This document shows positions 3,097-26,254 of a DNA stretch of 64,000 nt, one piece after another. Every line of letters begins with the position of its first letter. Position 1 is the stretch's first letter. A program made the translations under genes and the position numbers. A model generated the notes under the pieces. It made no database searches. It worked only from the letters and a program-made list of their open reading frames with translations, and had not been told where the DNA came from. Source of the DNA: Candidatus Latescibacterota bacterium (GTDB lineage Bacteria; Latescibacterota; UBA2968); assembly GCA_965222605.1 (NCBI GenBank), contig OZ244960.1, forward strand, positions 5,728,001 through 5,792,000, in the 5' to 3' direction.

Positions 3097-5253
3097 ATGA
3101 AAATACGTATTCTTTTTACTTTGTTGTCCTGTATCGCTCTTCTGGGAAGTATTTCCGAGGCGTCTGATTGGACGCACTGGCGCGGTCCTATGCAAAACGG
3201 CGCGTCGCCGGAGACAGGACTCATTTCTTCATGGTCTATAGCTGGCGAAAATCTGATCTGGCAGCGTGCATTTATCGGTAGATCTACACCGGTTATTGTA
3301 AATGGTCGGGTCTATGTTATCGGACGAACCGGCAAAGACATAACCGAGCAGGAGCACATCGCGTGTTTTGATGCCGAAACGGGCGATCTCGTGTGGGAAA
3401 AAAAGTTCAATGTCTGGCACTCGACCATTCCCTTCAACCGTCTCGGCTGGGCAAGCATGGGGGCCGATGGTGAAACCGGCAATATTTACGCCCATCTCGT
3501 CAATGGGTTATTGATCTGTTTTGATACCGATGGCTATGTCCAATGGCAGCGGTCTCTAACCGAAGAATTTAATCGATTCTCCGGTTATGGTGGGCGATTG
3601 CACACGCCCGTTGTCGATGGCGACCTGGTCATCATCAGCATGGGCAACCGAGGGTGGGCGGGCAAACCGCCTTCTCATCGGTATGTTGCCTTCAACAAAC
3701 ACACGGGTGAAACCGCGTGGATGGCTCGTCCAGGCGGCGGTGGACAGGTTGATTTAACCGTTTACTCTACGCCTGTTGTCACGACAATTGACGGGCAGCG
3801 CGCGTTGGTTGCCGGCAATGGCAATGGCGGTATTTTTGCCTTCAAAGTCGCAACGGGTGAAAAAGTGTGGGGATTTCCTCTCAGTAGGCGCGGTATCAAT
3901 ACTTCGCCCGCTGTGGCTGACAATCGCGTTTATGTCACGCACAGCGAAGAAAATGTCGATAATACCTCCCTTGGTCGCGTCACCTGTTTGGATGCGCGCA
4001 CGGGCAAAGAAATCTGGCGACAAGACGGTATGACTGTGGGCTATGCTTCGCCAGCGGTTCACGAGGGACGCGTCTATGTTATCGACAATTCGGCCAATGT
4101 GCATTGTTTGGACGCCAAGACGGGAAAGCAATATTGGGAGCAAAGTATCGGTACTGTGGGCAAGGGATCGCCGACATGGGCCGATGGCAAACTCTATGTT
4201 ACTGAAGTCAATGGCGGCTTCCAAATTCTCAAAACGAGCGATATGGGCGCGGAAGTGCTCGACAAAAAGAAAATCGCAATGCCTGAGGGCGGGCATGCCG
4301 AGATCTACGGGTCAGTCGCCGTTGCGTATCATCGCATCTATTTTGCGACCGAAGCAGGGTTGTTTTGTCTGGGCGATAAAAACGCGCGATTTGAAGTCAT
4401 GCCTTCTCCTCATGCAAAGCACGAAAGCGCGCCTTCGGGTGCCAAACCCGCATCTATTCTTTCTATTCCGGCTGAGACGACCATACAACAGGGCGAGGTA
4501 CTGCCCCTGCGGGCAGAGGCTTATGACGAAAAGGGTCGTTTGATCGGCAATGCCACTGCCGAGTGGTCGTTGAATGGCCTGGATGGAGAAATAAAGAACA
4601 ATCAGTTTGTACCATCCCGAGCGGGACAGGGCGGCTGGATCACGGCCAGGGTAGGTGAATTAACCCGACAAACCTGGGTGCGCGTGGTGCCCCCTTTGCC
4701 CTGGACAGAGGATTTTGAAAATGTCGAAGTCGGCAAAAACCCATTACACTGGGTGTGGGGGGGCAGGGGTTTCGCGGTGGAGGAAAAAGATGGCAACAAG
4801 GTACTGGCAAAACCCCCTGCTGCGCGCGGCTTAGATCGCTCAAATCTCTATGTGGCGCCGTACAAACTCAGTGGATATACGATTCAGGCCGATCTTATGG
4901 GTACGCAAAACAAGCGTCGTCGTCCCGATATGGGTCTCATTGCCCACCGCTATATCCTCGATCTTCAGGGCATTCACCAACGCCTCGAAGTTCGGTCGTG
5001 GTCGTCGGATTTGCGCATGGCAAAACGCATCGATTTTCACTGGGACATGGACGTGTGGTACACCATGAAAATGAGAGTTGATGTCGAAGGCGGTAAAGCC
5101 ATCGTTCGGGGCAAAGTTTGGAAAAAAGGCGATCCCGAACCCGATGCCTGGAGTATCGAAGTAGAAGATCCTCTGCCGATAGAAGAGGGCAGCCCCGCGC
5201 TTTATGGCTATTCACCCGCCACGATTTACTACGATAATGTGAAAATGTGGTAA
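3097..5253 (+). CDS. Secreted PQQ-like beta-propeller protein with C-terminal Ig-like and beta-sandwich domains
   Basis: Signal peptide then DWTHWRGP; repeated DAxTG..W blades; C-terminal PLPWTEDFE...YYDNVK domain; ATG 3097 after AAGGA. Confidence 0.85.
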   Translation: MKIRILFTLLSCIALLGSISEASDWTHWRGPMQNGASPETGLISSWSIAGENLIWQRAFIGRSTPVIVNGRVYVIGRTGKDITEQEHIACFDAETGDLVWEKKFNVWHSTIPFNRLGWASMGADGETGNIYAHLVNGLLICFDTDGYVQWQRSLTEEFNRFSGYGGRLHTPVVDGDLVIISMGNRGWAGKPPSHRYVAFNKHTGETAWMARPGGGGQVDLTVYSTPVVTTIDGQRALVAGNGNGGIFAFKVATGEKVWGFPLSRRGINTSPAVADNRVYVTHSEENVDNTSLGRVTCLDARTGKEIWRQDGMTVGYASPAVHEGRVYVIDNSANVHCLDAKTGKQYWEQSIGTVGKGSPTWADGKLYVTEVNGGFQILKTSDMGAEVLDKKKIAMPEGGHAEIYGSVAVAYHRIYFATEAGLFCLGDKNARFEVMPSPHAKHESAPSGAKPASILSIPAETTIQQGEVLPLRAEAYDEKGRLIGNATAEWSLNGLDGEIKNNQFVPSRAGQGGWITARVGELTRQTWVRVVPPLPWTEDFENVEVGKNPLHWVWGGRGFAVEEKDGNKVLAKPPAARGLDRSNLYVAPYKLSGYTIQADLMGTQNKRRRPDMGLIAHRYILDLQGIHQRLEVRSWSSDLRMAKRIDFHWDMDVWYTMKMRVDVEGGKAIVRGKVWKKGDPEPDAWSIEVEDPLPIEEGSPALYGYSPATIYYDNVKMW

Positions 5254-5285
5254 TTGTCATAACCCCTTACAGATAAAGGAATAAA

Positions 5286-6713
5286 ATGAAATTGAAACGA
5301 CTTTTGAGCGGATGTGCTATCGCTGGTCTGATTGCATCGGCTGGGATAGCCGAAGAGACCATGTGGGGATTTACTCCAGATCGCAACCTCGTATCAGACG
5401 CAAAAAATTTGCCGATGAGTTGGAATGTAGAAACGGGTGAAAACATCGCCTGGAAAGCAGATCTCGGCGCGCAGTCTTATGCCGGCCCCATCAGGATCGG
5501 TGGTAAAATATTTATGGGGACAAATAATCAGATCGCGCGCAATCCAAAAATCACGGGTGACAAGGGCGTGATCATGGCTTTTCAGGAATCCGATGGGAAA
5601 TTTCTGTGGCAAGCAGCGCATCCCAAGCTGCCCGCGGGGCGTGTCAATGACTGGCCGCAGCAAGGCATTTGTTCCACGCCTTATATTCGCGGGGATCGGA
5701 TGTATTATATCTCCAATCAATGTCACGTGGTGTGCGCGGATACAGAGGGTTTTTTGGATGGGGAAAATGATGGTCCATACACCGGGGAAGAGGATACGAG
5801 CGATATCGGCGTGGATATTATCTGGGAATACGATATGATGGAAGAGTTGGATGTGTTTCCACACAATCTGGCGACCTGTTCGCCCGTGGGAGCGGGGAAT
5901 CTCCTTTTTGTGATTACCGCCAATGGCGTCGATGAAGGCCATGTCGCTATTCCGTCGCCTCTGGCGCCCAGCTTTATTGCAATCGATCTCAATACGGGCG
6001 AACTGGTGTGGGAAAAAGACTATCCCGGCGAAAATATCTTGCACGGGCAGTGGTCCAATCCCGCTTATGGCGTCATCAATGGCAAGCCACAAGTGCTCTG
6101 TCCTGCAGGCGATGGCTGGATTTATGCGCTGGAACCTGCAACGGGCGATTTGATTTGGAAATTTGACTGCAATCCAAAAGACGCGGTGTGGGAGTTGGGC
6201 GGGCGCGGCACGCGCAATGCGATTATTTCCACCCCCGTTATTTACGATAACAAGGTTTTTATCGGCGTCGGGCAAGACCCGGAACACGGCGAGGGCATCG
6301 GACACCTGTGGGCTATTGATGCGACGGGTAGAGGCGATGTGACGGGTAGCCATGCAGTGTGGCACTTTGGCAATGAAGATTTCAACCGAACTATTTCAAC
6401 GGTGGGCATCAGCGATGGCCTGCTCTATGCGGCAGACCTCAGCGGTTTTGTCTATTGTCTCGATCTAAAAACCGGCACACAGCACTGGAAATACGACACA
6501 TTTGCCGCGGTATGGGGGTCACCTTTTGTCGCAGATGGGAAGGTGTATATTGGAGATGAAGATGGCGATGTGGCGATTTTGAAAGCCGGAACACAATTTG
6601 AACTGATCAACGAAATCAATATGGGTAGTGCCGTATATACCACGCCTATTGCAAAAGATGGCATGCTTTACATTGGCACGCGCAATACGTTGTATGCGAT
6701 TAAGGGCGAGTAG
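5286..6713 (+). CDS. Secreted PQQ-like beta-propeller protein
   Basis: Signal peptide, repeated xTGxLxW and SP..DG.vY blades; AAGGA RBS. Confidence 0.85.
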   Translation: MKLKRLLSGCAIAGLIASAGIAEETMWGFTPDRNLVSDAKNLPMSWNVETGENIAWKADLGAQSYAGPIRIGGKIFMGTNNQIARNPKITGDKGVIMAFQESDGKFLWQAAHPKLPAGRVNDWPQQGICSTPYIRGDRMYYISNQCHVVCADTEGFLDGENDGPYTGEEDTSDIGVDIIWEYDMMEELDVFPHNLATCSPVGAGNLLFVITANGVDEGHVAIPSPLAPSFIAIDLNTGELVWEKDYPGENILHGQWSNPAYGVINGKPQVLCPAGDGWIYALEPATGDLIWKFDCNPKDAVWELGGRGTRNAIISTPVIYDNKVFIGVGQDPEHGEGIGHLWAIDATGRGDVTGSHAVWHFGNEDFNRTISTVGISDGLLYAADLSGFVYCLDLKTGTQHWKYDTFAAVWGSPFVADGKVYIGDEDGDVAILKAGTQFELINEINMGSAVYTTPIAKDGMLYIGTRNTLYAIKGE

Positions 6714-6726
6714 AAGGGGTCATAAT

Positions 6727-7815
6727 ATGGAAGTGTTGGCAACACCTTTTACCGATAAGGTCAAAGAAGCGCGCGATATCCTTGATGTCCATGTGCGCGA
6801 TATGGTCGCGTGGCATTTTGATCCCAATACGGGATGTCCGTTCTGGCTGGAATTTGCAGGGGAACTGGATTTTGATCCTCGCCGTGAAATCGGCGGGTAC
6901 AGCGATCTGAAATACCTCGGGCATTTCCAGGATGAATGGCTACGCGGGGGACCCGTGCGGCGATGGATCCCCAGGGGGAGTGAAGAAAAGCGGACTTATG
7001 TATTTGAGACGGGTGGCTCAACCGGTGTTCCCAAATATCGGATCAGCCAAAATGATTTTCAGATCGACTACGAAATTTTTAGCGAGCACCTCTCAGAAGA
7101 AACATTTCCGAGAGGTGCGGACTGGTTGATGCTGGGGCCAACAGGTCCCCGACGATTGCGCCTGGCTGTTGAATATCTTTGTCAGATTCGCGGTGGAATT
7201 TGTTTTCTCGTGGATCTCGATCCCCGATGGGTCAACAAGCTGATCAAGCGCGGCGCACTTCAGGAATTGGAGCTTTACAAAGCCCATGTTATCGATCAGG
7301 CACTCACTATTTTGCGCGCTAACGACAATGTGAAATGCATGTTCACAACTCCTGCGCTCCTGGAAGAATTGTGCGAAAAAATTTCTCTGCAAAAAGCCGG
7401 GATCAGCGGCATTTTTTGCGGCGGTACAGAGATGAATGCACAATTTAATCGGTTTGCGAGAGAGGAGCTTATCCCGGGCATCGATTTTGTTCCTACCTAC
7501 GGCAATACCCTGATGGGGCTGGCTTATTCCAAGCCGCTGGAACCTGAAGACAATTACGCGATTACTTACTATCCACCCGTGCCCCGCGCGTTTATCGAAT
7601 TGGTGAATCCAAATAATTCCGATGAAGTGGTCGATTACGACGAAGTTGGGCGCGTGATGCTCACGACGCTCACAAAAGAATTTTTTATGCCCCGATTTCT
7701 CGAACGCGACGAGGCCGAACGCGCCAAACCGATTGACGCTTATCCCTGGGATGGCGTGAGAAACCTGGGTCTGTTCTCCGAGTTGCAGGAATCTGTCGTT
7801 GTCGGGGTGTATTAA
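6727..7815 (+). CDS. EhpF/GriC-like short adenylate-forming enzyme
   Basis: MVAWHFDPNTGCPFW, A3-like ETGGSTGVPK, YGNTLMG and ERD motifs recalled from phenazine EhpF / grixazone GriC; no C-terminal ANL lid domain. Confidence 0.7.
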   Translation: MEVLATPFTDKVKEARDILDVHVRDMVAWHFDPNTGCPFWLEFAGELDFDPRREIGGYSDLKYLGHFQDEWLRGGPVRRWIPRGSEEKRTYVFETGGSTGVPKYRISQNDFQIDYEIFSEHLSEETFPRGADWLMLGPTGPRRLRLAVEYLCQIRGGICFLVDLDPRWVNKLIKRGALQELELYKAHVIDQALTILRANDNVKCMFTTPALLEELCEKISLQKAGISGIFCGGTEMNAQFNRFAREELIPGIDFVPTYGNTLMGLAYSKPLEPEDNYAITYYPPVPRAFIELVNPNNSDEVVDYDEVGRVMLTTLTKEFFMPRFLERDEAERAKPIDAYPWDGVRNLGLFSELQESVVVGVY

Positions 7816-7837
7816 ATCGGGCGGATCGTTTATCCTA

Positions 7838-8977
7838 TCAGGGTAACCCCAACTCACGACAGAAGGTAGAAAACGGTAGAACGCGCGTGTTGTCTGCCGC
7901 GTTGCCGAAATCTTTTGTGCCCAGATGTACCTGGTAGAATCGCGAAATATCTGTTCGCTCCCTGAAGTACCTGCATGCGGGAGATGTCCCGCGCTCGCCA
8001 GTTTTGCACTCGACGGCAAATTCCGCATATCCATCGCGGAGAACGACAAAATCTACCTCGCGCTTGTCGGTATCGCGGATGAAGCGCAATTCCATGTCAT
8101 ATCCTTCAGTGTCTTCGACATAGTGGCAGTACTTCAGCAAGTGTCCGGCTACCATGTTCTCAAATCGGGCACCGCGGTCTGTTACGCGCGACCAGTCCCA
8201 GAAATATAGTTTTTTTTCTTTGCGTACGGCTCTGATCCTCTTTGCTCCAAACGGCGGAATGCGATAGCACAGGTACAGCCGTTCAAAGATCGCAAGCCAG
8301 CGTTCAACGGTTTCGTAAGCCACTTGCAAGAGTTTGCTGAGGCTATTGACCGAAAGCGGGGATCCCACGCAGGCGGGCAGGTGAGACAATAGCAGGTCCA
8401 GCATGGATACCTCTCGCACATTTTCCAGGTCACGGAGGTCTTCATAGATGACTCTTGTGGAATGCTCGCGTAGCCACCGGCGGTGAAATCGCGCCTCTCC
8501 CCTGAGAAAAGGCTCGGGGAAACCGCCAAATCTGAGTAATTGCGCCACGAGTGCGTTGTCTGGCTTCTGCCCGCATTCCATCAGGGTGAAGGGATGAAGA
8601 CGGTAATAGTGATACCGCCCCTGCAATGAGTCGCCGCCTTTGCGATAGTAGTCCAGCCGTGCCGAACCGGTGACAATAAAAGAAACGGATGTCTTGTTTT
8701 TGTCGAATAATCCCTTCATTAGATTTCGCCACAGCGCGTATTTGTGAATTTCATCGAAAATGATGCAAGTTTGTCCAGAAGGGAGTCTTCCCGCCAGAAT
8801 ATCCTCGCGATCGGCCAGTACATCCCAGTTCAGGTAGGCAGGTGACGACTCATTCTGGCCTTGCCCCAGTAGAGAGATTGCAAGTGTTGTTTTTCCAACC
8901 TGGCGCGGACCGCCGATGAATATCATCCTGTCTGCGATATCTGTTTTAATATGATCCATGATGTGGCGAGGTTCCAT
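7838..8977 (-). CDS. AAA_14 ATPase with C-terminal DUF4143 (PD-(D/E)XK-like) domain
   Basis: Walker A GPRQVGKT, Walker B IFDEIH, VTGSA, GGFPEP, EVDFV...AVECK. Confidence 0.9.
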   Translation of the reverse strand: MEPRHIMDHIKTDIADRMIFIGGPRQVGKTTLAISLLGQGQNESSPAYLNWDVLADREDILAGRLPSGQTCIIFDEIHKYALWRNLMKGLFDKNKTSVSFIVTGSARLDYYRKGGDSLQGRYHYYRLHPFTLMECGQKPDNALVAQLLRFGGFPEPFLRGEARFHRRWLREHSTRVIYEDLRDLENVREVSMLDLLLSHLPACVGSPLSVNSLSKLLQVAYETVERWLAIFERLYLCYRIPPFGAKRIRAVRKEKKLYFWDWSRVTDRGARFENMVAGHLLKYCHYVEDTEGYDMELRFIRDTDKREVDFVVLRDGYAEFAVECKTGERGTSPACRYFRERTDISRFYQVHLGTKDFGNAADNTRVLPFSTFCRELGLP

Positions 8978-8999
8978 ACTTATCACCTTTCTCGCATGT

Positions 9000-9067
9000 C
9001 GTGAGTATTTTAGACTAAACCTTAATATACTCGTGAGCATTTTAGAGTCAATATGAAAATACTCACG
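9000..9067 (-). promoter_or_regulatory. Promoter/operator of the AAA-DUF4143 gene
   Basis: 12-bp perfect inverted repeat CGTGAGTATTTT (9000-9011) / AAAATACTCACG (9056-9067) in two imperfect 32-bp tandem units; TTGACT-16-TATATT on the minus strand. Confidence 0.5.
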
Positions 9068-18230: not shown

Positions 18231-18733
18231 GAAAAATGATAAAGTATCGCGATTACTTAATTGAAGAACTTTCTGACCGCGAAGAGGCAATTGTCTATCT
18301 CCAAACCTCCATAGAAGAATATCAGAAGGACGGGGATACTTTAGCCCTCCTGTTAGCACTCCAAAGCATTATCGAAGCGCAGAGGGGGCGGAGTGAACTC
18401 GTTCTGCAAGTTTATTTGTTGCGAGGCTTGGTTTATCACTCACAAAAGGAGTATGACGCCGCCATTGAAGACTATACCAAAGTGCTGGAACTGAATCTCG
18501 ATTATAAAGGAGATAGCAGCCTGCCTGACCTTCTGACCAGTGCCTTTGAGGAAGTTCAAAAACTTCCCGAAGAGTCACGGGATGCACTTGCCGAGCAATT
18601 GATAAAAGATATAGAGGCAGATATCCAGTGGGATGAAACACTGGCAAAATCTCCCGATGTGCTTGCAAGACTTGCAGATAAGGCCAGAGAAGAATATAAA
18701 GCGGGGCGTACAGAACAACTGAAAAACTTTTAG
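18227..18733 (+). CDS. Antitoxin-like chimeric protein (antidote N-terminus, TPR, second antitoxin-like C-terminus)
   Basis: ATGA overlap with toxin; N-terminus YLIEELSDREEAIVYL; TPR YLLRGLVY..KEYDAAIEDYTKVLELN; C-terminus WDETLAKSPDVLARLADKAREEYKAG. Confidence 0.6.
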   Translation: MRKMIKYRDYLIEELSDREEAIVYLQTSIEEYQKDGDTLALLLALQSIIEAQRGRSELVLQVYLLRGLVYHSQKEYDAAIEDYTKVLELNLDYKGDSSLPDLLTSAFEEVQKLPEESRDALAEQLIKDIEADIQWDETLAKSPDVLARLADKAREEYKAGRTEQLKNF

Positions 18734-20003: not shown

Positions 20004-20018
20004 ACGGGATTGCTGTAT

Positions 20019-21320
20019 ATGCGAATTGCTTATATTGCCGCTGGTGCCGCGGGCATGTATTGTGGCAGTTGTATTCACGACAATGCGCTGGCCTCTGCTC
20101 TCCAGCGCAAGGGAATAGATTTCGCGCTTATTCCAACGTACACGCCCCTGCGTACCGATGAACCGGGCGCGAGTATCGATCGGGTATTTTACGGTGGCAT
20201 CAATGTTTATCTCCAGCAGAAAATGGGTATTTTTCGGCACACGCCGTATTTTATTGATCGGTTATTGAATAGTCGAATACTGCTCAATAGTCTCGCCCGT
20301 TTCAGTGGATCAACCCGTGCGGAAGACCTCGGCGCACTCACGGTATCGGTTTTAGAAGGGGAAGAAGGCGCGCAAAAAAAAGAACTCGCAAAGCTGGTGC
20401 GCTGGTTAAAAGAGGATTTCCAGCCCGATCTCGTGCAATTGACCAATTCCATGTTTTTGGGCATGGCCAGAGAAATGAAACGAGAACTCGGTGTTCCCAT
20501 TTTGTGTTCTCTGCAAGGCGAAGATATTTTCCTCGAAGGATTGATAGAACCCTACAAATCGGACGCGCGGCAGTGCTTACAAGATCGGGCAAAGGATGTC
20601 GATGGATTTGTCGCTACTTGCGATTATTATGCCGATTTTATGGCCGATTATCTCGATGTGCCGCGCAGTCGAATGCACATCGCGCCTTTGGGTATCAAAT
20701 TAGATGGGCATGGAGAAAGCGATGTAAAGCCAGACCCATTGCCTTTTGCGATTGGTTATCTCGCCCGAATATGTCCCGAGAAGGGGTTGCATGTGCTGGT
20801 TGATGCATTTCATCAATTGGCTGAACAAGTCGGTAAGGAAAATGTAAGACTCAGTGTTGCCGGTTATCTCGGACAAAGAGACGCGCCGTATTTTCAGCGC
20901 GTATGCGAACAAATCGCATCCCGGGGACTTTCCGATGTTTTTGATTATCGCGGGGAAGTCAATCGAGATGAAAAAATTGCATTTCTGAATAGCGTCCATA
21001 TCTTATCCGTACCTACGCCTTATAAAGAGCCTAAAGGACTATCGCTGCTTGAAGCTATGGCCAATGGCGTTCCCGTTGTTCAGCCTCGGCACGGTATTTT
21101 TCCAGAATGGATTGAAAAAACGGGTGGGGGAATTTTGGTAGAGCCAGATTCTTCAGAGGCATTGGCGGCTGGGCTGTTGTGGATGATGAATGACGAAGAA
21201 GGGCGAGAGGCGATGGGGCAAAAAGGCAAAGAAGCAGTGCATCAAAATTTTAGCGACGACGATATGGCGAAAGCAACACTGGCGGTATATCGACAGTATG
21301 TGATGGATTCAAAAACTTAA
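20019..21320 (+). CDS. Glycosyltransferase family 4 (GT-B)
   Basis: ARICPEKG, EPKGLSLLEAMANGVPVV; N-terminal MYCGSC. Confidence 0.88.
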   Translation: MRIAYIAAGAAGMYCGSCIHDNALASALQRKGIDFALIPTYTPLRTDEPGASIDRVFYGGINVYLQQKMGIFRHTPYFIDRLLNSRILLNSLARFSGSTRAEDLGALTVSVLEGEEGAQKKELAKLVRWLKEDFQPDLVQLTNSMFLGMAREMKRELGVPILCSLQGEDIFLEGLIEPYKSDARQCLQDRAKDVDGFVATCDYYADFMADYLDVPRSRMHIAPLGIKLDGHGESDVKPDPLPFAIGYLARICPEKGLHVLVDAFHQLAEQVGKENVRLSVAGYLGQRDAPYFQRVCEQIASRGLSDVFDYRGEVNRDEKIAFLNSVHILSVPTPYKEPKGLSLLEAMANGVPVVQPRHGIFPEWIEKTGGGILVEPDSSEALAAGLLWMMNDEEGREAMGQKGKEAVHQNFSDDDMAKATLAVYRQYVMDSKT

Positions 21321-21333: not shown

Positions 21334-21825
21334 ATGCCGACTTCATCTTCTGGACTTACGTGGTTGATTTTTGCGTTGTTGACTGTGGGGGCGTGGGGTT
21401 TGTACGGGATTTTTTTGCACACCGGGCAGATCGCTATGGGCGATCCCGAAAATGGACGCTACAAGGCGTTTCTTTTTGTGGGAATTGCCTATCTTTTGAC
21501 CGCCGTTATTGGATCTCTCATTGTGCTGGCGATCAACGGCTCGGACTGGACATTCCCGACAAAAGGGCTGACATGGTCGCTGCTGGCTGGTATTGTGGGG
21601 GCAATTGGCGCGTTCGGCGTGCTCCTCGCCTTTGGAGCAAAGGGAACGCCGCCCGTGGTTATGTCCATTGTTTTTGCCGGCGCGCCTATGGTCAATGCTG
21701 TCGTCTCTCTCATTATGCATCCGCCAGCAGGTGGATGGGGCGGTTTGAACTGGCAATTTGTGTTGGGTATTATATTGGCCGCGCTGGGAGGGTGTCTGGT
21801 GACCTTATTTAAACCTTCGTCTTGA
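21334..21825 (+). CDS. Small EamA/DMT-like membrane protein
   Basis: 163 aa, about five TM helices, WGLYG and GAPMVNA motifs. Confidence 0.6.
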   Translation: MPTSSSGLTWLIFALLTVGAWGLYGIFLHTGQIAMGDPENGRYKAFLFVGIAYLLTAVIGSLIVLAINGSDWTFPTKGLTWSLLAGIVGAIGAFGVLLAFGAKGTPPVVMSIVFAGAPMVNAVVSLIMHPPAGGWGGLNWQFVLGIILAALGGCLVTLFKPSS

Positions 21826-21840
21826 TTGAAAATAAAAACT

Positions 21841-22263
21841 ATGCACAGTGAATTTCACACCACACACAGAGTCGCGTTTTCCGATACGGACATGGCCGGG
21901 ATTGTACACTTTTCCCGGTTTTTTGTCTTTATGGAAGCGGCCGAGCACGCTTTTTTGCGCGCGTTGGGTACGAGTGTTTCAACAGAATGGGATGGGAATA
22001 AAATTGGATGGCCGCGGTTGGAGGCGACGTGTACATATCTCAGTCCGGCCGTATTTGAAGATGTGCTGGATATTCATCTGAAGGTGATACGGAAGGGTAC
22101 AAAATCGTTGACCTATCGGTTTGATTTTTTTCGCGGGGAAACGGCTATTGCCCGTGGAAAATTGAGCACGGTATGTTGTATATGCAATCCCGGCGAAAAA
22201 ATCAGGTCCATACCGATCCCAGATTTTATTGCGGAGCAAATTCAGATCGCGGATGAGAGGTGA
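21841..22263 (+). CDS. Hot-dog fold acyl-CoA thioesterase (4HBT/YbgC type)
   Basis: VAFSDTDMAGIVHF motif. Confidence 0.88.
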   Translation: MHSEFHTTHRVAFSDTDMAGIVHFSRFFVFMEAAEHAFLRALGTSVSTEWDGNKIGWPRLEATCTYLSPAVFEDVLDIHLKVIRKGTKSLTYRFDFFRGETAIARGKLSTVCCICNPGEKIRSIPIPDFIAEQIQIADER

Positions 22264-22276
22264 GAAGATGATTGAT

Positions 22277-22303
22277 CTGGATTCCGGCTTTTTCCGGAAT
22301 GAC
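22277..22303. repeat. REP-like palindromic element
   Basis: CTGGATTCCGG-CTTTTT-CCGGAATGAC, matching the widespread GTCATTCC..GGAATCCAG intergenic palindrome type. Confidence 0.6.
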
Positions 22304-22316
22304 GATGGAGCACAAA

Positions 22317-22970
22317 ATGGCACTAAAAATTGAGCATCTTTCCAAACGCTTTGGCGATGTAAATGTTTTGCGGGATATATCTTTTGAAATGGCGGCGGGG
22401 CAATCGCTGAGTGTTATGGGACCTTCGGGGTCGGGAAAGAGTACCTTATTGCATGTGCTGGGTACGCTGGATCGACCATCTGAGGGAAGCCTTGAAATTG
22501 AAGGCCAGGATCCCTACGCATTGTCGGAAATCGAACTCGCGCGGTTTAGAAATCAGGGTATTGGATTTGTGTTTCAAGAGCACCATCTTTTGCCGCAATA
22601 CTCGGTTTTGGAAAATGTTTTGATCCCAACGCTGGCATTTAGAAATGGAGATGCGCGAGACCGCGCCCGAGAGATTATTGATCGCGTGGGCTTGTCGCAT
22701 CGCATTGATCATCGGCCCGCTGAATTATCTGGCGGCGAGCGACAGCGCACAGCTGTTGCGCGTGCCCTCATCAATTCCCCGGCATTGCTTTTGTGCGACG
22801 AGCCAACGGGTAGCCTGGATGGGGCGCGAGCAGAAGAAATAGCCGATCTGCTATTTGAGTTGCACAAGCGTGAAAATAATATTCTGATCTGCGCGACGCA
22901 CAGTACGGCACTGGCCCATCGCTTTGAGCGACGGTTTGATCTGCGGGGTGGAACGTGCGTCGAAGTCTGA
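22317..22970 (+). CDS. ABC transporter ATP-binding protein (LolD/MacB type)
   Basis: GPSGSGKS, IGFVFQ, LSGGERQR, DEPTGSLD. Confidence 0.93.
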   Translation: MALKIEHLSKRFGDVNVLRDISFEMAAGQSLSVMGPSGSGKSTLLHVLGTLDRPSEGSLEIEGQDPYALSEIELARFRNQGIGFVFQEHHLLPQYSVLENVLIPTLAFRNGDARDRAREIIDRVGLSHRIDHRPAELSGGERQRTAVARALINSPALLLCDEPTGSLDGARAEEIADLLFELHKRENNILICATHSTALAHRFERRFDLRGGTCVEV

Positions 22971-25900
22971 TCTATTTCTGGCGAATTAATCTGGCTGTTG
23001 TGCTCGGTGTGGCAGTGGCTACGGCTGTTCTGACGGGTGCTTTGATCGTGGGCGATTCCGTGCGCGGCAGCTTGCGGGATTTGTCGCTGAATCGCCTGGG
23101 AAAAATTGATCACGCCCTGGTATCCGAGCGATTTTTTCGCGCGAGTCTGGGACGCGATCTCGAGCGTGAACTCGACACTCAAGATGTTGTATCGGCCATT
23201 AGCTTGAGTGGAACGGCTGTTCACGCGGGATCGAATACGCGGGCTTCTCGCGTGCAGATTCAGGGTATTGATAATCGCTTTGCAAATCTGTTTGATCAAA
23301 TATTGCCCGAGTTGACGAGCGAGGGAATATTCCCGCCGGTTATTGTCAACGAATCCCTCCAAAAAGAACTCAACGCACAGATTGGCGATGCCATTCTGCT
23401 GTCTTTTGAGCAATCAGATGATATTCACCGCGAATCGCTATTTGGACGTGCTGATGATGCGGTTCAAACAATTCGACTGACACTTGCGGCCGTGCTTCCA
23501 GATAGGGGAATGGGGCGCTTTGGCCTGTTCGCCCGCCAGACGGTTCCTTTTAATGCGTATCTGTCGTTGCCGGTTTTGCAAAAAGCGTTGGGTCAAAGAG
23601 GCCGCGTGAATACATTGCTGGTGTCGGGTGATCCTGATACAGACGTTCAGGAAGCACTTTCCCGCGTTGCAACGCCCGATGATCTCGGCATTGTCATCCG
23701 CCGAGAGGCCGATTATTTCGCTATTGAGAGCACGCAGTTTATTCTCAAATCCCATATCGCGGAAACTATTCAAAAAGTATCTGCCGAATTAAATGCGCCT
23801 CACATGTCCATTCTCACCTATCTGGCGAATACCACACAGGTGGGGAAAAGAGAACTGCCCTATTCTACAATTTCTGCGTTAGATGTTGGAAATCTGGGGG
23901 ATTTTCAGCTTGTAGATGGGTCACTACAACTCGGGGAAGATGATATTTTGCTGAACACCTGGGCGGCTGAGGATTTAAACGCACGGGTTGGCGATGAAGT
24001 CAAAGTTGCCTATTACGAAGTCGCGCCTGGGGAAGAACTTCTGACCCGTTGGGCGCCATTCCAACTCAAGGGTATTGTGGCAATGGCGGGATTGGGGGCG
24101 GATGAAAAGTTGTCTCCCGACTATCCGGGCCTGGGCGATACGAATAATATGGCCGATTGGGAGGCCCCTTTTCCCATAGACCTGAGTCGTGTTCGTCCCA
24201 AAGACGAAGCGTATTGGGACACTTATCGCGATGCGCCAAAAACCTTTGTGTCTGCCGCGACTGGACAGCGATTGTGGAGAAGTCGATTTGGCGTATTAAC
24301 CGCTGTACGCATTGGGGCTATTGCGGGGCGGGATATTGAAATGACAGCAAAGCTATTTGAGGATAGCTTGCGCAAAAACATCGCGCCCGAATCGGTTGAC
24401 CTGACATTTCAGCCTATCAAACAGCAGGGCCTGGTCGCTTCTACGGGGGCAACGGACTTTAGCGGACTGTTTATTGCATTCAGTCAATTCCTGATCATCT
24501 CCGCAGCACTCCTGGTCGGATTATTATTTCGCCTGAGTGTGGAGCAGCGGGGCAGAGAAGTCGGGATGCGGATGGTATCGGGATATACGGGAAAAAAAAT
24601 TCGCCGACTCTTTAGCCGTGAGGGCCTTGTGCTGGCCGGTGTGGGTGGCATCTTGGGGCTGGTAGGCGGTGTTTTCTACGCTTATCTGATTACGGTGGGA
24701 TTGCGTACTTATTGGGTGGGCGCGGTTGGGACGTCTGATCTCTCGCTTCACATCCACACATCAAGTCTGTTATTGGGATATGCCATTTCACTAATCGTGA
24801 TCCTGTTGGCAATCTGGCTCACGCTCCGCCGGTTGGGCAATATTTCTGTTCGCGCATTATTATCGGGTATTACGGAAGTGGTGCGCGCAAAGCCGCGCAC
24901 AAAATGGTATGCTCTGGGCAGCCTCATCCTCGCCGCGCTCAGTCTGGGGGGGGGCGCGACGGTGGATCCATCAACGGGTACAGGTTTGTTTTTTGTTAGT
25001 GGCGCGCTGTGGATGGTTGCGGGGTTGTGCTTTCTCTCGGTCTGGTTTAGACGCGGGCATCGCGCCATAAGAGAAGGTATTGTTGGCATGGGGGTGCAAA
25101 ATAGCAAGCGGCAGCCCGCGCGCAGTTTGCTGTGTGCCTCACTCATCGGATGTGCGTGTTTTGTCATTGTTGCAGTAGGCGCGAATAGGCGAACTGATCT
25201 GACTCAAAATATCGCGCAAGACAAAGCTTCTGGTACGGGCGGCTTTGCCCTTATCGCTGAAGTTGATGTGCCGATTTATCAGGATTTTAATTCAAAAGAC
25301 GGGCAATTTGAACTCGGATTTTCGCAGGCAGATACAGAACTCTTAAATCAAGCGCGGTTCATCCCGCTGCGCGTTTTGCCCGGGGAAGATGCGAGTTGTC
25401 TCAATCTTTATCAGCCCGAAAGCCCGCGTGTTTTGGGGGTTCCCGAAGCTCTACGTCAGCGAGGTGGTTTTACATTTCAGCAAACGAGCACCGAAGTAGA
25501 AAATCCCTGGACTCTATTATCCGAGGATTTGGGCGCAGATGTGATTCCGGCAATTGGGGATTATAATTCGGCTATGTGGATTTTGCACAAGCAATTGGGC
25601 GATGATATTGTGTTGCAGAATGAAATGGGGGAGACTGTCAAGCTGAGATTGGTGGGCTTGTTAAAGACGAGTATTTTTCAAAGTGAATTGCTGATTTCCG
25701 AAGACAATTTTTTGCGACATTTTCCCGACCAAAGTGGGTATGGTGCTTTTCTCGTTGAAACACAACAACCCGTTCAGCTTACTGTGCTTGTGGAAAGCAG
25801 ATTAAAAGACATCGGGTTAGACGCCGTATCCACAGCGCAAAAACTCGCGCATTTTCAGGAGGTCGAAAATACGTATCTCTCCACCTTTCAAACACTGGGG

Positions 25901-26254
25901 GGATTGGGCCTGCTGTTGGGTACGATCGGATTGGGAATCGTCCTGTTGAGAAATGTTATTGAAAGACGCGGTGAATTGGCCGTTCTTCGCGCCTTTGGCT
26001 TTCGCCGCGCTGTGTTGTCGCGCATGTTGCTCGCGGAGAATGGTTTTTTAATGTTCGTGGGCCTGGCTATCGGCAGCGTCTCTGCGCTTATTGCCGTAGC
26101 GCCCCATGTCATAAGCTATGGTGCGTTAATTCCATGGGGATCACTGGGCCTCACACTCGTCATCATATATGGCGCGGGTCTCATCGCAAGTGCGATAGCC
26201 GTTTTCTTCGCCCTGCGAGCACCTTTATTGCCCGCATTGAAACAGGAGATGTGA
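22955..26254 (+). CDS. ABC transporter permease, tandem FtsX/MacB-like
   Basis: 1099 aa, two FtsX-type halves (EQRGREVGM, ERRGELAVLRAFG) with large periplasmic loops. Confidence 0.88.
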   Translation: MRRSLIYFWRINLAVVLGVAVATAVLTGALIVGDSVRGSLRDLSLNRLGKIDHALVSERFFRASLGRDLERELDTQDVVSAISLSGTAVHAGSNTRASRVQIQGIDNRFANLFDQILPELTSEGIFPPVIVNESLQKELNAQIGDAILLSFEQSDDIHRESLFGRADDAVQTIRLTLAAVLPDRGMGRFGLFARQTVPFNAYLSLPVLQKALGQRGRVNTLLVSGDPDTDVQEALSRVATPDDLGIVIRREADYFAIESTQFILKSHIAETIQKVSAELNAPHMSILTYLANTTQVGKRELPYSTISALDVGNLGDFQLVDGSLQLGEDDILLNTWAAEDLNARVGDEVKVAYYEVAPGEELLTRWAPFQLKGIVAMAGLGADEKLSPDYPGLGDTNNMADWEAPFPIDLSRVRPKDEAYWDTYRDAPKTFVSAATGQRLWRSRFGVLTAVRIGAIAGRDIEMTAKLFEDSLRKNIAPESVDLTFQPIKQQGLVASTGATDFSGLFIAFSQFLIISAALLVGLLFRLSVEQRGREVGMRMVSGYTGKKIRRLFSREGLVLAGVGGILGLVGGVFYAYLITVGLRTYWVGAVGTSDLSLHIHTSSLLLGYAISLIVILLAIWLTLRRLGNISVRALLSGITEVVRAKPRTKWYALGSLILAALSLGGGATVDPSTGTGLFFVSGALWMVAGLCFLSVWFRRGHRAIREGIVGMGVQNSKRQPARSLLCASLIGCACFVIVAVGANRRTDLTQNIAQDKASGTGGFALIAEVDVPIYQDFNSKDGQFELGFSQADTELLNQARFIPLRVLPGEDASCLNLYQPESPRVLGVPEALRQRGGFTFQQTSTEVENPWTLLSEDLGADVIPAIGDYNSAMWILHKQLGDDIVLQNEMGETVKLRLVGLLKTSIFQSELLISEDNFLRHFPDQSGYGAFLVETQQPVQLTVLVESRLKDIGLDAVSTAQKLAHFQEVENTYLSTFQTLGGLGLLLGTIGLGIVLLRNVIERRGELAVLRAFGFRRAVLSRMLLAENGFLMFVGLAIGSVSALIAVAPHVISYGALIPWGSLGLTLVIIYGAGLIASAIAVFFALRAPLLPALKQEM

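What the first reader, a model, noticed from the sequence alone, without database searches (positions are those of the whole stretch)
3097..26254. Orphan biosynthetic cluster with no PKS/NRPS core, embedded among secreted beta-propellers
Seen: a co-oriented, tightly spaced run of two adenylating enzymes, an acyl reductase, an Fe-ADH, a HemN-like radical SAM, a flavin halogenase-family enzyme, a GT4, a thioesterase, an EamA-like protein, a LolD/FtsX ABC system, a TonB receptor and three PQQ-like propellers. Two more propellers follow at 26261 and 27946. Known: these tailoring families typically modify small carboxylic acids. Inference: the locus imports or makes an (aryl)carboxylate, then reduces, methylates, halogenates and glycosylates it, and exports it. 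The product could be an undescribed cofactor or ligand for the abundant orphan propellers; no pqq genes occur in the window. I do not recognise it as a characterised pathway.
Basis: partly seen in the sequence, partly recalled or inferred. Interest (0 to 1): 0.8.

Follow-up and report, generated by a model that had tools for sequence, protein, structure and literature searches.

The report
Conserved acid-reductase, halogenase, propeller gene cluster
About twenty genes that several little-studied bacterial phyla keep as a set most likely reduce, methylate, halogenate and sugar-tag an organic (probably aromatic) acid and handle it in the cell envelope with secreted propeller proteins; the product is unknown.

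Summary
Observation confirmed.

The locus is not a chance neighbourhood.
- g05 to g20 keep their order in 7 of 10 relatives fetched across one order.
- The signature gene g05 has relatives in 589 of 602 matched stretches, from several phyla.
- g05, permease g20, propeller g22 and TAXI protein g23 share one presence/absence pattern in 41 relatives, even where dispersed. A flanking gene does not.

Core set: an EhpF/EhpG-type two-protein carboxylate reductase, a GT4, a double-FtsX ABC system and a propeller.

Accessory set: Fe-ADH, a HemN-like radical SAM enzyme, a motif-complete flavin halogenase, a PaaK-like ligase, a thioesterase, an EamA half-transporter, a TonB receptor and a TAXI-TRAP importer.

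The whole genome has only one convincing ketosynthase match.

Best reading (0.45): an aromatic acid is reduced, tailored, glycosylated and passed to periplasmic propellers that carry one conserved face. The product is unknown and the cofactor idea is untested.

The scan met this cluster family before on other DNA. I rate it a new variant of a known kind, interest 0.6.

The parts
3097..5253 (+). g03: exported 8-blade-type PQQ_2 propeller followed by an Ig-like domain and a lectin/CBM-like beta-sandwich
   Evidence: Pfam PQQ_2 1.7e-36. Hydrophobic N-terminus. AF2 model of the last 290 aa has pLDDT 92. Foldseek hits lectin/CBM domains, e.g. CBM66 with TMt 0.66-0.69 and rmsd 3.0. Homologues lie upstream of g05 in 40 of 80 loci.
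5286..6713 (+). g04: exported 8-blade propeller with one strongly conserved face
   Evidence: Pfam PQQ_2. 47-94% identical across the 24 orthologues aligned. AF2 pLDDT 82, pTM 0.86. Foldseek top hit is BamB, E 9e-22. 61 of 67 invariant loop residues lie on the D-A and B-C loops.
6727..7815 (+). g05: EhpF-type adenylating half of a two-protein carboxylate reductase (ANL N-domain only)
   Evidence: PDB EhpF 6.6e-44, aligned 12-348 to 11-351 of 366 with the P-loop kept. Listed homologues are 72-89% identical, including ones named Calditrichia, KSB1, Poribacteria and Acidobacteria. Single copy in the genome.
7838..9040 (-). g06: AAA_14/DUF4143 ATPase, a variable insertion, not part of the conserved set
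   Evidence: Pfam. Present in 2 of 10 relatives fetched (G014, G016). Clustered in 2 of 80 loci.
9250..10674 (+). g07: ALDH-fold reductase half (EhpG-like); Cys kept, general-base Glu replaced by His
   Evidence: Pfam Aldedh 4.9e-15. Alignment to KauB. C288, H252 and N164 are invariant in 24 sequences. Found in 53 of 80 loci.
10678..11793 (+). g08: iron-containing alcohol dehydrogenase
   Evidence: Pfam Fe-ADH 1.5e-45 plus ADH_Fe_C. Found in 23 of 80 loci.
11800..12900 (+). g09: exported propeller, overlapping the start of g10 by 7 bases
   Evidence: Beta-prop_ACSF4 210 bits (cut-off 133) and PQQ_2 2.7e-43. Hydrophobic N-terminus. Overlap. Found in 19 of 80 loci.
12894..14243 (+). g10: HemN-like radical SAM enzyme, candidate class C methyltransferase
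   Evidence: Radical_SAM 5.7e-19 and HemN_C. hemN and ChuW/HutW models about 1e-54, below cut-offs. PDB HemN 4.6e-32 and NocN methyltransferase 2.9e-24. CxxxCxxC and GGGTP conserved (95% or more) in 34 sequences.
14420..16540 (+). g11: TonB-dependent siderophore-type receptor (accessory)
   Evidence: TIGR01783 248 bits, over the cut-off. PDB 5nec 3.7e-36, FhuA, Fiu. Missing from the cluster in G021 and G029.
16544..17812 (+). g12: PaaK-family acid-CoA ligase
   Evidence: AMP-binding_C_2 7.5e-19. PaaK models 3e-76 and 2e-69, FlxY 4.7e-49, all below cut-offs.
17892..18733 (+). g13/g14: RelE/HI1419-type toxin plus TPR ORF, a strain-specific insertion
   Evidence: TIGR02683 129 bits, over the cut-off. 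Among 10 relatives, g14 was seen only in G014 and g13 in none. RNA-library contigs of runs X17 and X21 join 17808 to 18744.
18744..20003 (+). g15: flavin-dependent halogenase family enzyme with complete motifs
   Evidence: Trp_halogenase 5.9e-26. CmlS model 3.7e-67, below cut-off. PDB halogenases 8zop 9.8e-68, CmlS, PltA and others. WFW[YF]IP, the Lys and GDA kept in 13 of 13 orthologues; GxGxxG in 12 of the 12 that cover it.
20010..21320 (+). g16: GT4 glycosyltransferase with a conserved N-terminal MYCGxCxxDN motif (likely start ATG 20019)
   Evidence: Glycos_transf_1 6.7e-31. Motif kept at 95% or more in 30 sequences. Found in 22 of 80 loci.
21334..21825 (+). g17: five-helix single-EamA-type (DMT) membrane protein
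   Evidence: No Pfam or NCBIfam hit. Five hydrophobic segments. Atlas neighbours are 'putative EamA domain-containing protein', score 0.97.
21826..22263 (+). g18: 4HBT/YbgC-type thioesterase
   Evidence: 4HBT_2 5e-11 and 4HBT 1.4e-10. YbgC model 1.7e-18, below cut-off.
22272..22970 (+). g19: LolD/YbbA-like ABC ATPase
   Evidence: ABC_tran 7.8e-35. LolD 240 bits (cut-off 307.75) and YbbA 5.7e-53.
22955..26254 (+). g20: 1099-aa fused double-FtsX permease with two periplasmic domains (type VII ABC architecture)
   Evidence: MacB_PCD plus two FtsX stretches. Roughly ten hydrophobic segments; the scan lists eleven, partly overlapping. Invariant periplasmic motifs in 26 sequences. Found in 37 of 41 relatives.
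26261..27796 (-). g21: membrane-anchored propeller (hydrophobic N-terminal segments)
   Evidence: PQQ_2 1.3e-30. Hydrophobic segments. Orthologue next to g20 in G014 (90%) and G021 (51%).
27946..29256 (+). g22: exported propeller, paralogue of g04 with different conserved loops
   Evidence: PQQ_2 2.9e-23. hhalign against g04: probability 99.8, 26% identity. Found in 37 of 41 relatives, the same four genomes lacking it as for g05.
29343..32207 (+). g23/g24: TAXI solute-binding protein and fused TRAP permease (organic-anion importer)
   Evidence: TIGR02122 271 bits and TIGR02123 555 bits, both over cut-off. g23 found in 37 of 41 relatives with the same pattern. Both lie upstream of g03 in an acidobacterial record, L083.

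Best explanation
The locus is one vertically kept functional unit, not a mobile antibiotic cluster.

Shown by sequence: g05 adenylates a carboxylic acid, and g07 has what a thioester reductase needs (Cys, no general-base Glu). Together they should act as an EhpF/EhpG-type two-protein, ATP- and NAD(P)H-dependent carboxylate reductase that makes an aldehyde. This pair, a GT4 glycosyltransferase, a double-FtsX (type VII) ABC system and a periplasmic propeller form the core that is kept across phyla.

Inferred:
- In the window's lineage, Fe-ADH g08 takes the aldehyde to the alcohol.
- The aglycone is an electron-rich aromatic ring.
- That ring is C-methylated by the HemN-like radical SAM enzyme g10 and halogenated by g15.
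- A second acid function is handled as a CoA thioester by g12 and g18.
- The acid enters through the TonB receptor and the TAXI-TRAP importer.
- The GT4 glycosylates the product.
- The EamA half-transporter moves it across the inner membrane.
- The type VII ABC system hands it on in the periplasm.
- There the exported propellers bind it or act on it. They have one conserved polar face, and g03 also has a lectin-like domain.
For: Unit:
- g05 to g20 keep their order in 7 of 10 relatives fetched (G014, G016, G021, G029, G030, G033, G039).
- In G001, G010 and G018 the parts are dispersed yet all kept.
- g05, g20, g22 and g23 are each found in 37 of 41 relatives and missing from the same four genomes. 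The flanking PhyH gene shows 24 of 41 with a different pattern.
- 589 of 602 matched stretches in genome contigs encode g05 relatives. Record titles name Latescibacterota, Poribacteria, Gemmatimonadota, Acidobacteriota and Planctomycetota.
- Homologues in the 80 best loci: g07 in 53, g03 in 40, g04 in 38, g08 in 23, g16 in 22.
- The minimal order g05-g07-g16-g19-g20-propeller occurs in acidobacterial classes.

Chemistry:
- EhpF match, end to end.
- g07 residues.
- Halogenase motifs, 13 of 13, and the best solved relatives are halogenases.
- HemN and NocN matches.
- PaaK and FlxY matches, and TRAP-TAXI over its cut-offs.

Propellers:
- Five of about nine PQQ_2 genes of the genome lie here.
- PQQ_2 matches: median 8 in 83 genomes with g05, median 1 in 68 without.
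- g04 has one conserved face.
- g03 has a lectin-like domain.

Other:
- Type VII ABC systems work with periplasmic partners encoded nearby (PMC12646458, abstract and outline).
- Contigs from four RNA libraries lie on 16, 29, 20 and 29 of 30 bins of the cluster. One spans g05 to g08 and one spans g08 to g10.
Against: - No substrate, product or precursor pathway is identified. The extra recurrent families found in 80 loci gave no clue.
- The halogenase and radical SAM genes are absent from 2 of 3 minimal-module genomes tested. So the aromatic inference may not hold for the core.
- The relatives of the halogenase that I recall as characterised mostly act on carrier-bound substrates, and I saw no carrier protein gene in the cluster. 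This is recall plus the Pfam scan of ORFs of 100 aa or more; small ORFs were not scanned.
- Type VII ABC systems usually handle hydrophobic or membrane-held cargo, which fits a lipid better than a small glycoside.
- The RNA-library contigs are mostly 90-95% alike, so they come from relatives. The tool warns that such libraries may hold DNA.
- Related genomes are not independent.
Confidence: 0.45

Rival explanations
1. Envelope glycolipid route. A fatty or hydroxy-fatty acid is reduced to a fatty alcohol by g05/g07/g08, glycosylated by the GT4, flipped by g17, and extracted from the inner membrane by the type VII ABC system for the outer layers. This would resemble heterocyst glycolipid export.
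For: - The minimal core kept across phyla is just reductase pair + GT4 + ABC + propeller.
- g19 also matches the DevA heterocyst exporter model, 3.7e-43.
- g18 resembles YbgC acyl-CoA thioesterases.
- HglT and DevBCA as a parallel are recalled, not seen here.
Against: - Neither g05 nor g07 gave any LuxE or LuxC hit among the Pfam families listed (E up to 0.001). g05's only solved relative is EhpF, which acts on a phenazine acid (the substrate is recalled).
- Flavin halogenases need activated, usually aromatic, carbons (established knowledge).
- No membrane-fusion or TolC-type gene was seen in the locus.
Confidence: 0.17
2. Uptake and detoxification or catabolic funnelling. An environmental aromatic acid is taken up (TonB receptor, TAXI-TRAP), reduced, conjugated with sugar and expelled. 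The propellers release or bind the acid in the periplasm.
For: - TRAP-TAXI systems import organic anions. g23/g24 are over their family cut-offs and share the cluster's phyletic pattern.
- The TonB receptor sits inside the operon.
- No UbiC-type chorismate lyase was found in the genome, while the control rang in E. coli.
- The surrounding window is rich in polymer-degrading genes such as sulfatases and a heparinase-like protein.
Against: - A halogenase and a radical SAM enzyme are unusual in catabolism.
- Sequence identity is very high across phyla: g05 is 65-76% identical in loci titled as other phyla.
- g05 gave a single match in 82 of the 83 genomes that have it (a second, partial match in one genome). 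Both points fit a fixed endogenous role better than a variable xenobiotic one.
Confidence: 0.15
3. First reader's idea. The product is a new prosthetic group or ligand that the exported propellers need, a functional stand-in for PQQ.
For: - Propeller counts track the cluster.
- g22 co-occurs with g05 in 37 of 37 genomes with g05 and is missing from all 4 without it.
- g04 and g22 carry different invariant His/Asp/Glu-rich loops at equivalent positions. In g04 these lie on one face.
- No PqqE match over its cut-off was found in the genome.
Against: - The propellers are BamB-sized and score far below the PQQ dehydrogenase cut-offs.
- No protein of the locus has a CxxCH haem motif or a vicinal Cys pair, and no cytochrome gene lies in it.
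- The PqqC search was uninformative because its control rang nowhere.
- The minimal module makes at most a glycosylated aldehyde, a poor redox cofactor.
Confidence: 0.1
4. The genes are unrelated neighbours that merely lie side by side.
For: - Two insertions (g06, g13/g14) and a 176-base gap before g11 show that the array tolerates interruption.
- Promoter-like and terminator-like sites are no more frequent than in shuffles.
Against: - Synteny holds across an order and across phyla.
- The phyletic pattern is identical for parts that are dispersed in some genomes, while a flanking control gene differs.
Confidence: 0.03

Closest known systems
EhpF/EhpG of the D-alanylgriseoluteic acid (phenazine) pathway of Pantoea agglomerans; GriC/GriD of grixazone synthesis
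   Same: - g05 has the length of EhpF and aligns with it end to end, E 6.6e-44.
- An ALDH-like gene follows it, as ehpG follows ehpF in phenazine operons (PMC11278526, table passages).
- Together they should form a two-protein carboxylate reductase.
   Different: - No phenazine or 3,4-AHBA genes are in the locus.
- The family here is far more conserved and is tied to propellers, a GT4 and an ABC system.
- The roles of EhpF/EhpG and GriC/GriD are recalled, or came from earlier scan notes. For GriC/GriD I saw only a listing of three papers that mention them.
Flavin-dependent halogenases of the CmlS/PltA/Bmp2/CndH group
   Same: GxGxxG, WxWxIP, the catalytic Lys and the GDA motif are present. The best solved matches run from 9.8e-68 to 1e-45.
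   Different: - The score is below the CmlS equivalog cut-off (227 against 900 bits).
- No carrier protein or flavin reductase gene was seen in the locus.
- Substrate unknown.
YbbAP-TesA and other type VII ABC systems (LolCDE-LolA, MacAB-TolC, FtsEX-EnvC)
   Same: - LolD/YbbA-like ATPase plus a fused double-FtsX permease with MacB-type periplasmic domains.
- Exported proteins are encoded beside it, as TesA is beside YbbAP (PMC12646458, abstract and outline).
   Different: - The permease is about 300 residues longer than the roughly 800-residue YbbP (length recalled), with a 470-residue first periplasmic domain.
- The candidate partners are propellers, not a hydrolase.
- Binding was not tested.
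Tailoring and export sets of flexirubin and aryl-polyene clusters
   Same: A PaaK/FlxY-like ligase (FlxY model 4.7e-49), a 4HBT thioesterase, a flavin halogenase, a methylating enzyme, a glycosyltransferase and Lol-like export occur together. The make-up of those clusters is recalled.
   Different: There is no ketosynthase, ACP or reductase set for a polyene. The genome gives only one convincing ketosynthase match.
Halogenated p-anisyl/4-hydroxybenzoate metabolites: the planctomycete baa locus and the fungal aryl-alcohol redox cycle
   Same: - Small halogenated, methylated aromatic acids are made by stand-alone enzymes without a megasynthase (bioRxiv 10.1101/723874, passages).
- Fungi cycle aryl aldehydes and alcohols between intracellular NADPH reductases and extracellular oxidases (PMC8140971, section 5 passage).
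   Different: - The baa locus is a chorismate lyase plus a brominase. No chorismate lyase family match was found in this genome.
- The fungal enzymes are unrelated families.
- Any likeness is functional analogy only.
BamB and PQQ-dependent dehydrogenases
   Same: 8-blade propeller fold with PQQ_2 repeats. Foldseek finds BamB at 9e-22 and PQQ alcohol dehydrogenases at about 1e-17.
   Different: - All scores are below the BamB and PQQ-dehydrogenase family cut-offs.
- The conserved polar loops are family-specific.
- g03 carries extra Ig-like and lectin-like domains.

Membership tests
EhpF/EhpG-type two-protein carboxylate reductase | Adenylating subunit made of the ANL N-terminal domain only, with the phosphate-binding loop | tested here: met
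   362 aa, aligned 12-348 to EhpF 11-351 of 366. The ETGGSTGVPK loop aligns with that of EhpF; of it, E94, T95, G96, G97, T99, G100, P102 and K103 are invariant in 24 sequences and S98 nearly so.
EhpF/EhpG-type two-protein carboxylate reductase | Adjacent ALDH-fold partner with the catalytic Cys but without the general-base Glu | tested here: met
   C288 is invariant. His252 sits where the Glu of the ALDH motif aligns. The partner is next to g05 in most loci. In the window the two are separated by the inserted g06.
EhpF/EhpG-type two-protein carboxylate reductase | ATP- and NAD(P)H-dependent reduction of an acid to an aldehyde; physical complex | not testable with these tools
   This needs an enzyme assay.
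LuxE/LuxC fatty acid reductase | Match to the Pfam LuxE and LuxC families | tested here: not met
   At E up to 0.001, g05 hit only AMP-binding and g07 hit only Aldedh.
Flavin-dependent halogenase | GxGxxG, WxWxIP and the catalytic Lys | tested here: met
   All are present in the window protein (alignments). WxWxIP and the Lys are kept in 13 of 13 orthologues; GxGxxG in 12 of the 12 that cover it.
Flavin-dependent halogenase | Score over a curated equivalog cut-off | tested here: not met
   CmlS model 227 bits against a cut-off of 900. The GG-reductase superfamily model gives 139 against 158.8. It does pass the Pfam Trp_halogenase cut-off, 91.8 against 21.
Class C (HemN-like) radical SAM methyltransferase | CxxxCxxC cluster motif, GGGTP SAM motif, HemN-like C-terminal domain | tested here: met
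   Both motifs are kept at 95% or more in 34 sequences. HemN_C is weak, 2.3e-4. PDB matches: HemN 4.6e-32 and NocN 2.9e-24.
Class C (HemN-like) radical SAM methyltransferase | Methyl transfer rather than coproporphyrinogen oxidation or haem chaperoning | not testable with these tools
   The hemN, ChuW/HutW and HemW models all score alike and below their cut-offs. A separate HemN/HemW-like gene lies elsewhere in the genome, 27% identical.
Type VII (MacB/LolCDE/YbbAP) ABC system | FtsX-type permease with a MacB-like periplasmic domain plus a cognate ATPase | tested here: met
   MacB_PCD plus two FtsX stretches in g20, and ABC_tran in g19.
LolCDE lipoprotein release system | Scores over the LolD and LolC/E equivalog cut-offs | tested here: not met
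   LolD 240 against 307.75 bits; lolCE 34 against 362 bits.
TAXI-TRAP transporter | TAXI solute-binding protein and fused permease over their family cut-offs | tested here: met
   TIGR02122 271 against 84 bits; TIGR02123 555 against 321 bits.
PQQ-dependent dehydrogenase (quinoprotein) | Score over the family cut-off; vicinal Cys pair or haem c domain; pqq genes in the genome | tested here: not met
   - The best PQQ_enz_alc_DH score is 89 against 480 bits.
- No CC or CxxCH motif in any propeller.
- No PqqE match over its cut-off.
- The PqqC search was uninformative.
BamB | Score over the TIGR03300 cut-off | tested here: not met
   The best is g09 with 231.5 against 285.2 bits; the others score 47-79 bits.
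PKS/NRPS biosynthetic cluster | Ketosynthase, condensation or carrier domains | tested here: not met
   None among 43 ORFs of the window scanned. The genome gives one FabF-sized ketosynthase match plus one weak partial match.

The most novel reading that the evidence does not exclude
The set encodes a closed shuttle between cytoplasm and periplasm.

- A small halogenated aryl alcohol, possibly as a glycoside, is exported by the EamA protein and the type VII ABC system.
- In the periplasm it is oxidised or otherwise consumed by a new family of metal- or cofactor-dependent propeller enzymes, whose conserved His/Asp/Glu loops lie on one face.
- It returns as the carboxylate through TAXI-TRAP.
- It is then recharged by the ATP/NAD(P)H-driven two-protein reductase and the Fe-ADH.

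This would be a bacterial counterpart of the fungal aryl-alcohol redox cycle, and a new way to deliver reducing power or a reactive aldehyde to the envelope.
Probability: 0.1. Interest if true: 0.85.

Novelty: new variant of a known kind. Interest (0 to 1): 0.6.

Why it matters
**Scale.** That collection holds one genome per species, so the set is probably present in several hundred species of Latescibacterota, Poribacteria, Gemmatimonadota, Acidobacteriota and Planctomycetota. These groups are abundant in soils, sediments and sponges and are hard to culture.

**Conservation.** It is conserved at a level usual for central metabolism: g05 is 65-76% identical in loci titled as other phyla. Yet no product, substrate or phenotype is known.

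**What solving it would give:**
- The natural role of the rare two-protein carboxylate reductases, which are of interest as biocatalysts.
- A job for a large family of 'BamB-like/PQQ-like' propellers that annotation pipelines leave unnamed.
- A periplasmic partner and a cargo for a new branch of type VII ABC systems.

If a halogenated aromatic product is made at this scale, it would also bear on natural organohalogen budgets.

Tried and rejected
**Complex prediction.** No result exists. I also considered a job with a periplasmic domain of g20 and g22. I did not send it: two domains plus g22 exceed 1000 residues, and I could not tell which propeller is the partner.

**Promoter and terminator scan.** It found 31 and 28 sites against 22.9 and 22.6 in shuffles. 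It says nothing about operon limits.

**Foldseek on g04.** It gave only generic 8-blade propellers and no enzyme-specific match.

**PqqC family search.** Its control rang in none of 14 genomes, so it is no evidence of absence.

**Extra recurrent gene families in 80 loci.** These included a 233-aa Vgb_lyase-like protein in 12 loci, a sulfatase, a laminin-G protein and an M19 peptidase. None points to a precursor.

**Paper searches.**
- '8ZOP' found nothing.
- Acidobacteria + halogenase + radical SAM + propeller + glycosyltransferase gave one irrelevant paper.

**RNA runs.** I did not use depths to rank genes, and uncovered bins mean nothing.

**Readings rejected.**
- A LuxCDE-type fatty acid reductase: no LuxE or LuxC match.
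- A flexirubin or aryl-polyene cluster: no ketosynthase.
- True PQQ quinoproteins: scores and motifs do not fit.
- A LodB/QhpG-type protein hydroxylase for g15: the halogenase matches and motifs are much stronger.
- A RiPP: no precursor-sized conserved ORF was noticed, but small ORFs were not searched systematically.

**Not looked at.** Supplements of PMC9426513, a sponge BGC survey seen only in the listing. They might list this gene cluster family.

Full report
**Observation**

I listed ORFs and scanned 24 of them from 1-32 kb against Pfam and NCBIfam.
- Three PQQ_2-type propellers: g03, g04, g09.
- Two adenylating enzymes: g05, g12.
- An ALDH-like protein, g07.
- An Fe-ADH, g08.
- A HemN-like radical SAM enzyme, g10.
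- A TonB siderophore-type receptor, g11, over the TIGR01783 cut-off.
- A flavin halogenase family enzyme, g15.
- A GT4, g16.
- A 4HBT thioesterase, g18.
- A LolD-like ATPase, g19.
- A 1099-aa double-FtsX permease, g20.
- Two further propellers, g21 and g22.

The 163-aa g17 has no family hit. Its five hydrophobic segments and its atlas neighbours fit a single EamA-type domain.

Gaps between consecutive + strand genes run from -31 to 176 bases.

- An AAA_14/DUF4143 gene on the opposite strand (7838-9040).
- A RelE-type toxin plus TPR ORF (17892-18733).
- A TAXI-TRAP importer downstream (29343-32207).

**Is it one unit?**

g05 was found in 37 of 41 relatives of one order, at 76-98% identity. I fetched 32 kb around it in 10 of these genomes and laid all window proteins on them.
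- In 7 of 10 (G014, G016, G021, G029, G030, G033, G039), the genes from g05 to g20 lie in the window's order.
- The TonB receptor is missing in G021 and G029.
- g06 is present only in G014 and G016.
- g03/g04 are not upstream in the three genomes of the second family.
- In G001, G010 and G018 the second half was not within reach. Later searches found g20, g22 and g23 elsewhere on those chromosomes.

g05, g20, g22 and g23 are each found in 37 of 41 relatives, and each is missing from the same four genomes (G022, G023, G026, G036). The flanking PhyH gene g02 shows another pattern: 24 of 41, absent from all 16 genomes of the second family and present in G022. So the parts are kept or lost together even when unlinked. 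Related genomes are not independent, so this is a pattern, not a statistic.

**Beyond the order**

g05 has at least 8000 homologues in the protein collection. The 120 listed are 72-89% identical, and some are named Calditrichia, KSB1, Poribacteria or Acidobacteria.

Of these, 589 encode a relative. The nearest loci, 88-95% identical with the same gene order, are titled Candidatus Latescibacterota, so the window is most likely from that phylum.

In the 80 best loci I found homologues of g07 in 53, g03 in 40, g04 in 38, g08 in 23, g16 in 22, g09 in 19, g10 in 18 and g20 in 12. The threshold was 35% identity over 60% of length, and many loci are short contigs.

Two architectures appear.
- **Propeller-first:** g03-g04-g05-g07-g08-g09-g10-(propeller)-(g11)-g12-g15-g16... 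This occurs in Latescibacterota, Poribacteria (split into sub-clusters), Gemmatimonadota, Thermoanaerobaculia and the record titled Acidobacteria bacterium Mor1.
- **Minimal:** g05-g07-g16-g19-g20-propeller, in Blastocatellia, Pyrinomonadaceae, Vicinamibacteria and Bryobacteraceae.

A g05 tree of 69 rows splits into two clades, each with 100/99 support. One has 25 rows, 21 of them minimal modules. The other has 44 rows, 37 of them with propellers upstream.

Of three minimal-module genomes searched whole, two have no orthologue of the halogenase or the radical SAM enzyme. So the core is the reductase pair, GT4, ABC system and a propeller. The rest is accessory.

Within the window's phylum, g05 was found in 83 of 151 genomes sampled. 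All of these are in three families of one class. It is not universal.

**The enzymes**

- **g05.** It matches only EhpF among solved structures (6.6e-44). It has the same length and aligns end to end, including the phosphate loop. It lacks the C-terminal ANL subdomain.
- **g07.** It keeps the ALDH catalytic Cys (C288, invariant in 24 sequences) and the Asn. It has an invariant His where the general-base Glu aligns. This is what a thioester-reducing enzyme needs and a hydrolysing aldehyde dehydrogenase does not. Neither g05 nor g07 matches Pfam LuxE or LuxC.
- **g15.** It has GxGxxG, WxWxIP and the Lys. Its best solved relatives are halogenases: 8zop 9.8e-68, then CmlS, PltA and several entries titled only as halogenases. 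WxWxIP and the Lys are kept in 13 of 13 orthologues; GxGxxG in 12 of the 12 that cover it.
- **g10.** It has the CxxxCxxC and GGGTP motifs. It matches HemN (4.6e-32) and the methyltransferase NocN (2.9e-24). Whether it methylates cannot be told from sequence.
- **g12.** It is PaaK-like and also matches the flexirubin ligase model FlxY. All scores are below their cut-offs.
- **g16.** This GT4 carries an N-terminal MYCGxCxxDN motif kept at 95% or more in 30 sequences. I cannot explain it.
- **Megasynthases.** No ketosynthase, condensation or carrier domain is in the window. The genome has one FabF-sized ketosynthase match plus one weak partial match.
- **Copy number.** None of g05, g07, g12, g16, g17, g18 or g20 has a second copy in the genome.

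**The propellers**

Five of about nine PQQ_2 genes of the genome lie in this locus.

In the phylum sample, PQQ_2 matches at E up to 1e-15 have a median of 8 (range 4-16) in the 83 genomes with g05. The median is 1 (range 0-10) in the 68 without. All 83 of the former have four or more matches, against 12 of the 68. Three caveats apply:
- Matches are not copy numbers.
- The cluster's own propellers are counted.

g04 is 47-94% identical across the 24 orthologues aligned, with long invariant polar loop motifs. Its model (pLDDT 82, pTM 0.86) is a generic 8-blade propeller, nearest to BamB. Of its invariant loop residues, 61 of 67 fall on the D-A and B-C loops, which share one face. Six fall on the opposite loops. 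This count rests on my strand assignment from the model's secondary-structure string.

g22 is a paralogue of g04 (hhalign probability 99.8, 26% identity). It has different conserved His-rich loops at equivalent positions.

The last 290 residues of g03 fold with pLDDT 92 into an Ig-like domain plus a beta-sandwich. That sandwich resembles lectin and carbohydrate-binding modules.

g03, g04, g09 and g22 have signal-peptide-like N-termini. g21 has hydrophobic N-terminal segments.

No protein of the locus has a CxxCH motif or, among the propellers, a vicinal Cys pair. All scores against the PQQ dehydrogenase and BamB models are below their cut-offs.

A propeller gene that sits between g10 and g11 in relatives, and after g20 in minimal modules, is missing from the window. 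The best match elsewhere in the genome is only 51-55% identical.

**Expression**

Contigs of four RNA libraries from four studies lie on 16, 29, 20 and 29 of 30 bins of 3037-22970, at 90% likeness or more. One contig covers 7116-11243 and one covers 11570-14252. Contigs of two runs join 17808 to 18744, so they lack the toxin insert.

Most are 90-95% alike, so they come from relatives. The tool warns that DNA can be present in such libraries.

**Mechanism**

Shown by sequence:
- An EhpF-type adenylating enzyme beside a Cys-only ALDH-fold partner.
- A motif-complete flavin halogenase.
- A HemN-like radical SAM enzyme.
- An organic-anion importer.
- A type VII ABC architecture.
- Exported propellers with a conserved face.
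- Joint inheritance of these parts.

Inferred:
- The acid is aromatic.
- The order of the steps.
- Glycosylation of the reduced product.
- Handover to the propellers.

I put 0.45 on this scheme. The rivals are an alkyl-glycoside envelope lipid (0.17), uptake and detoxification (0.15), a propeller cofactor (0.10) and chance neighbours (0.03).

**Comparison with known systems**

The closest known parts are these:
- EhpF/EhpG, and GriC/GriD. Their roles are recalled and came from earlier scan notes.
- The CmlS/PltA-type halogenases.
- YbbAP-TesA and other type VII ABC systems (PMC12646458, abstract and outline).
- The tailoring sets of flexirubin clusters (recalled).

Functional analogies are the planctomycete dibromo-anisic acid locus (bioRxiv 10.1101/723874, passages) and the fungal aryl-alcohol cycle (PMC8140971, passage).

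I found no paper on this cluster with the searches. For most hits these searches read titles and abstract starts only.

Earlier agents of this scan described the same cluster family in other genomes and also left the product open.

**Limits**

- No substrate is identified.
- The complex prediction could not be run.
- Small ORFs were not searched.
- Taxon labels of some bins look doubtful.
- All counts across genomes come from related genomes and from samples, not from complete surveys.

Noticed in passing
window 17892-18733: A RelE/HI1419-type toxin gene (over its NCBIfam cut-off) and an overlapping TPR ORF sit between g12 and g15. Relatives, and contigs of two RNA libraries, join 17808 directly to 18744, so this is a recent insertion into the operon.
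   Followed up: partly
window 7838-9040 (- strand): An AAA_14/DUF4143 ATPase gene lies on the opposite strand between the two halves of the reductase pair. It was present in only 2 of 10 relatives fetched.
   Followed up: partly
window 14243-14420, against L053:17513-18838 and L057:17799-19040: Relatives carry a roughly 410-aa exported propeller gene between the radical SAM and TonB receptor genes. The same family follows the FtsX gene in acidobacterial minimal modules. The window has only a 176-base gap there, and the best genome match (51-55% identity) lies about 2.7 Mb away on the chromosome (near base 3.01 million; the window starts at 5.73 million).
   Followed up: partly
window 20019-20100 (N-terminus of g16): The GT4 has an N-terminal MYCGxCxxDN motif with two Cys, kept at 95% or more in 30 sequences from several phyla. 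It is not part of the usual GT4 signature, and I have no explanation for it.
   Followed up: no
window 47284-54479: A low-GC stretch (0.42 against about 0.51) holds a 1690-aa ORF with a weak nSTAND3 NTPase match and a ParA/MinD-like gene. It is possibly a defence or mobile island.
   Followed up: no
window 90-2078 and 57091-59073: Two DUF6785/DUF6784 multi-pass membrane proteins. tblastn finds at least six more paralogues in the genome at 36-59% identity.
   Followed up: no
window 32198-56051: Polysaccharide-use genes: a heparinase II/III-like protein, three sulfatases, L-rhamnose isomerase, an enolase-superfamily enzyme and two more PhyH dioxygenases.
   Followed up: no
L060, L061, L094, L117: The loci titled Gemmatimonadota (L060, L061) have the same gene order as a Latescibacterota locus (L059), and their g05 genes sit beside its g05 in the tree. 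Loci titled Patescibacteria group (L094) and Acidimicrobiia (L117) carry the cluster too. These labels may reflect binning errors or gene transfer.
   Followed up: no
L084:11216-11917 and 11 other loci: A 233-aa ORF with a weak Vgb_lyase (propeller-like) match recurs in 12 of 80 loci. In the representative locus (L084) it lies just downstream of g05. It is absent from the window.
   Followed up: no
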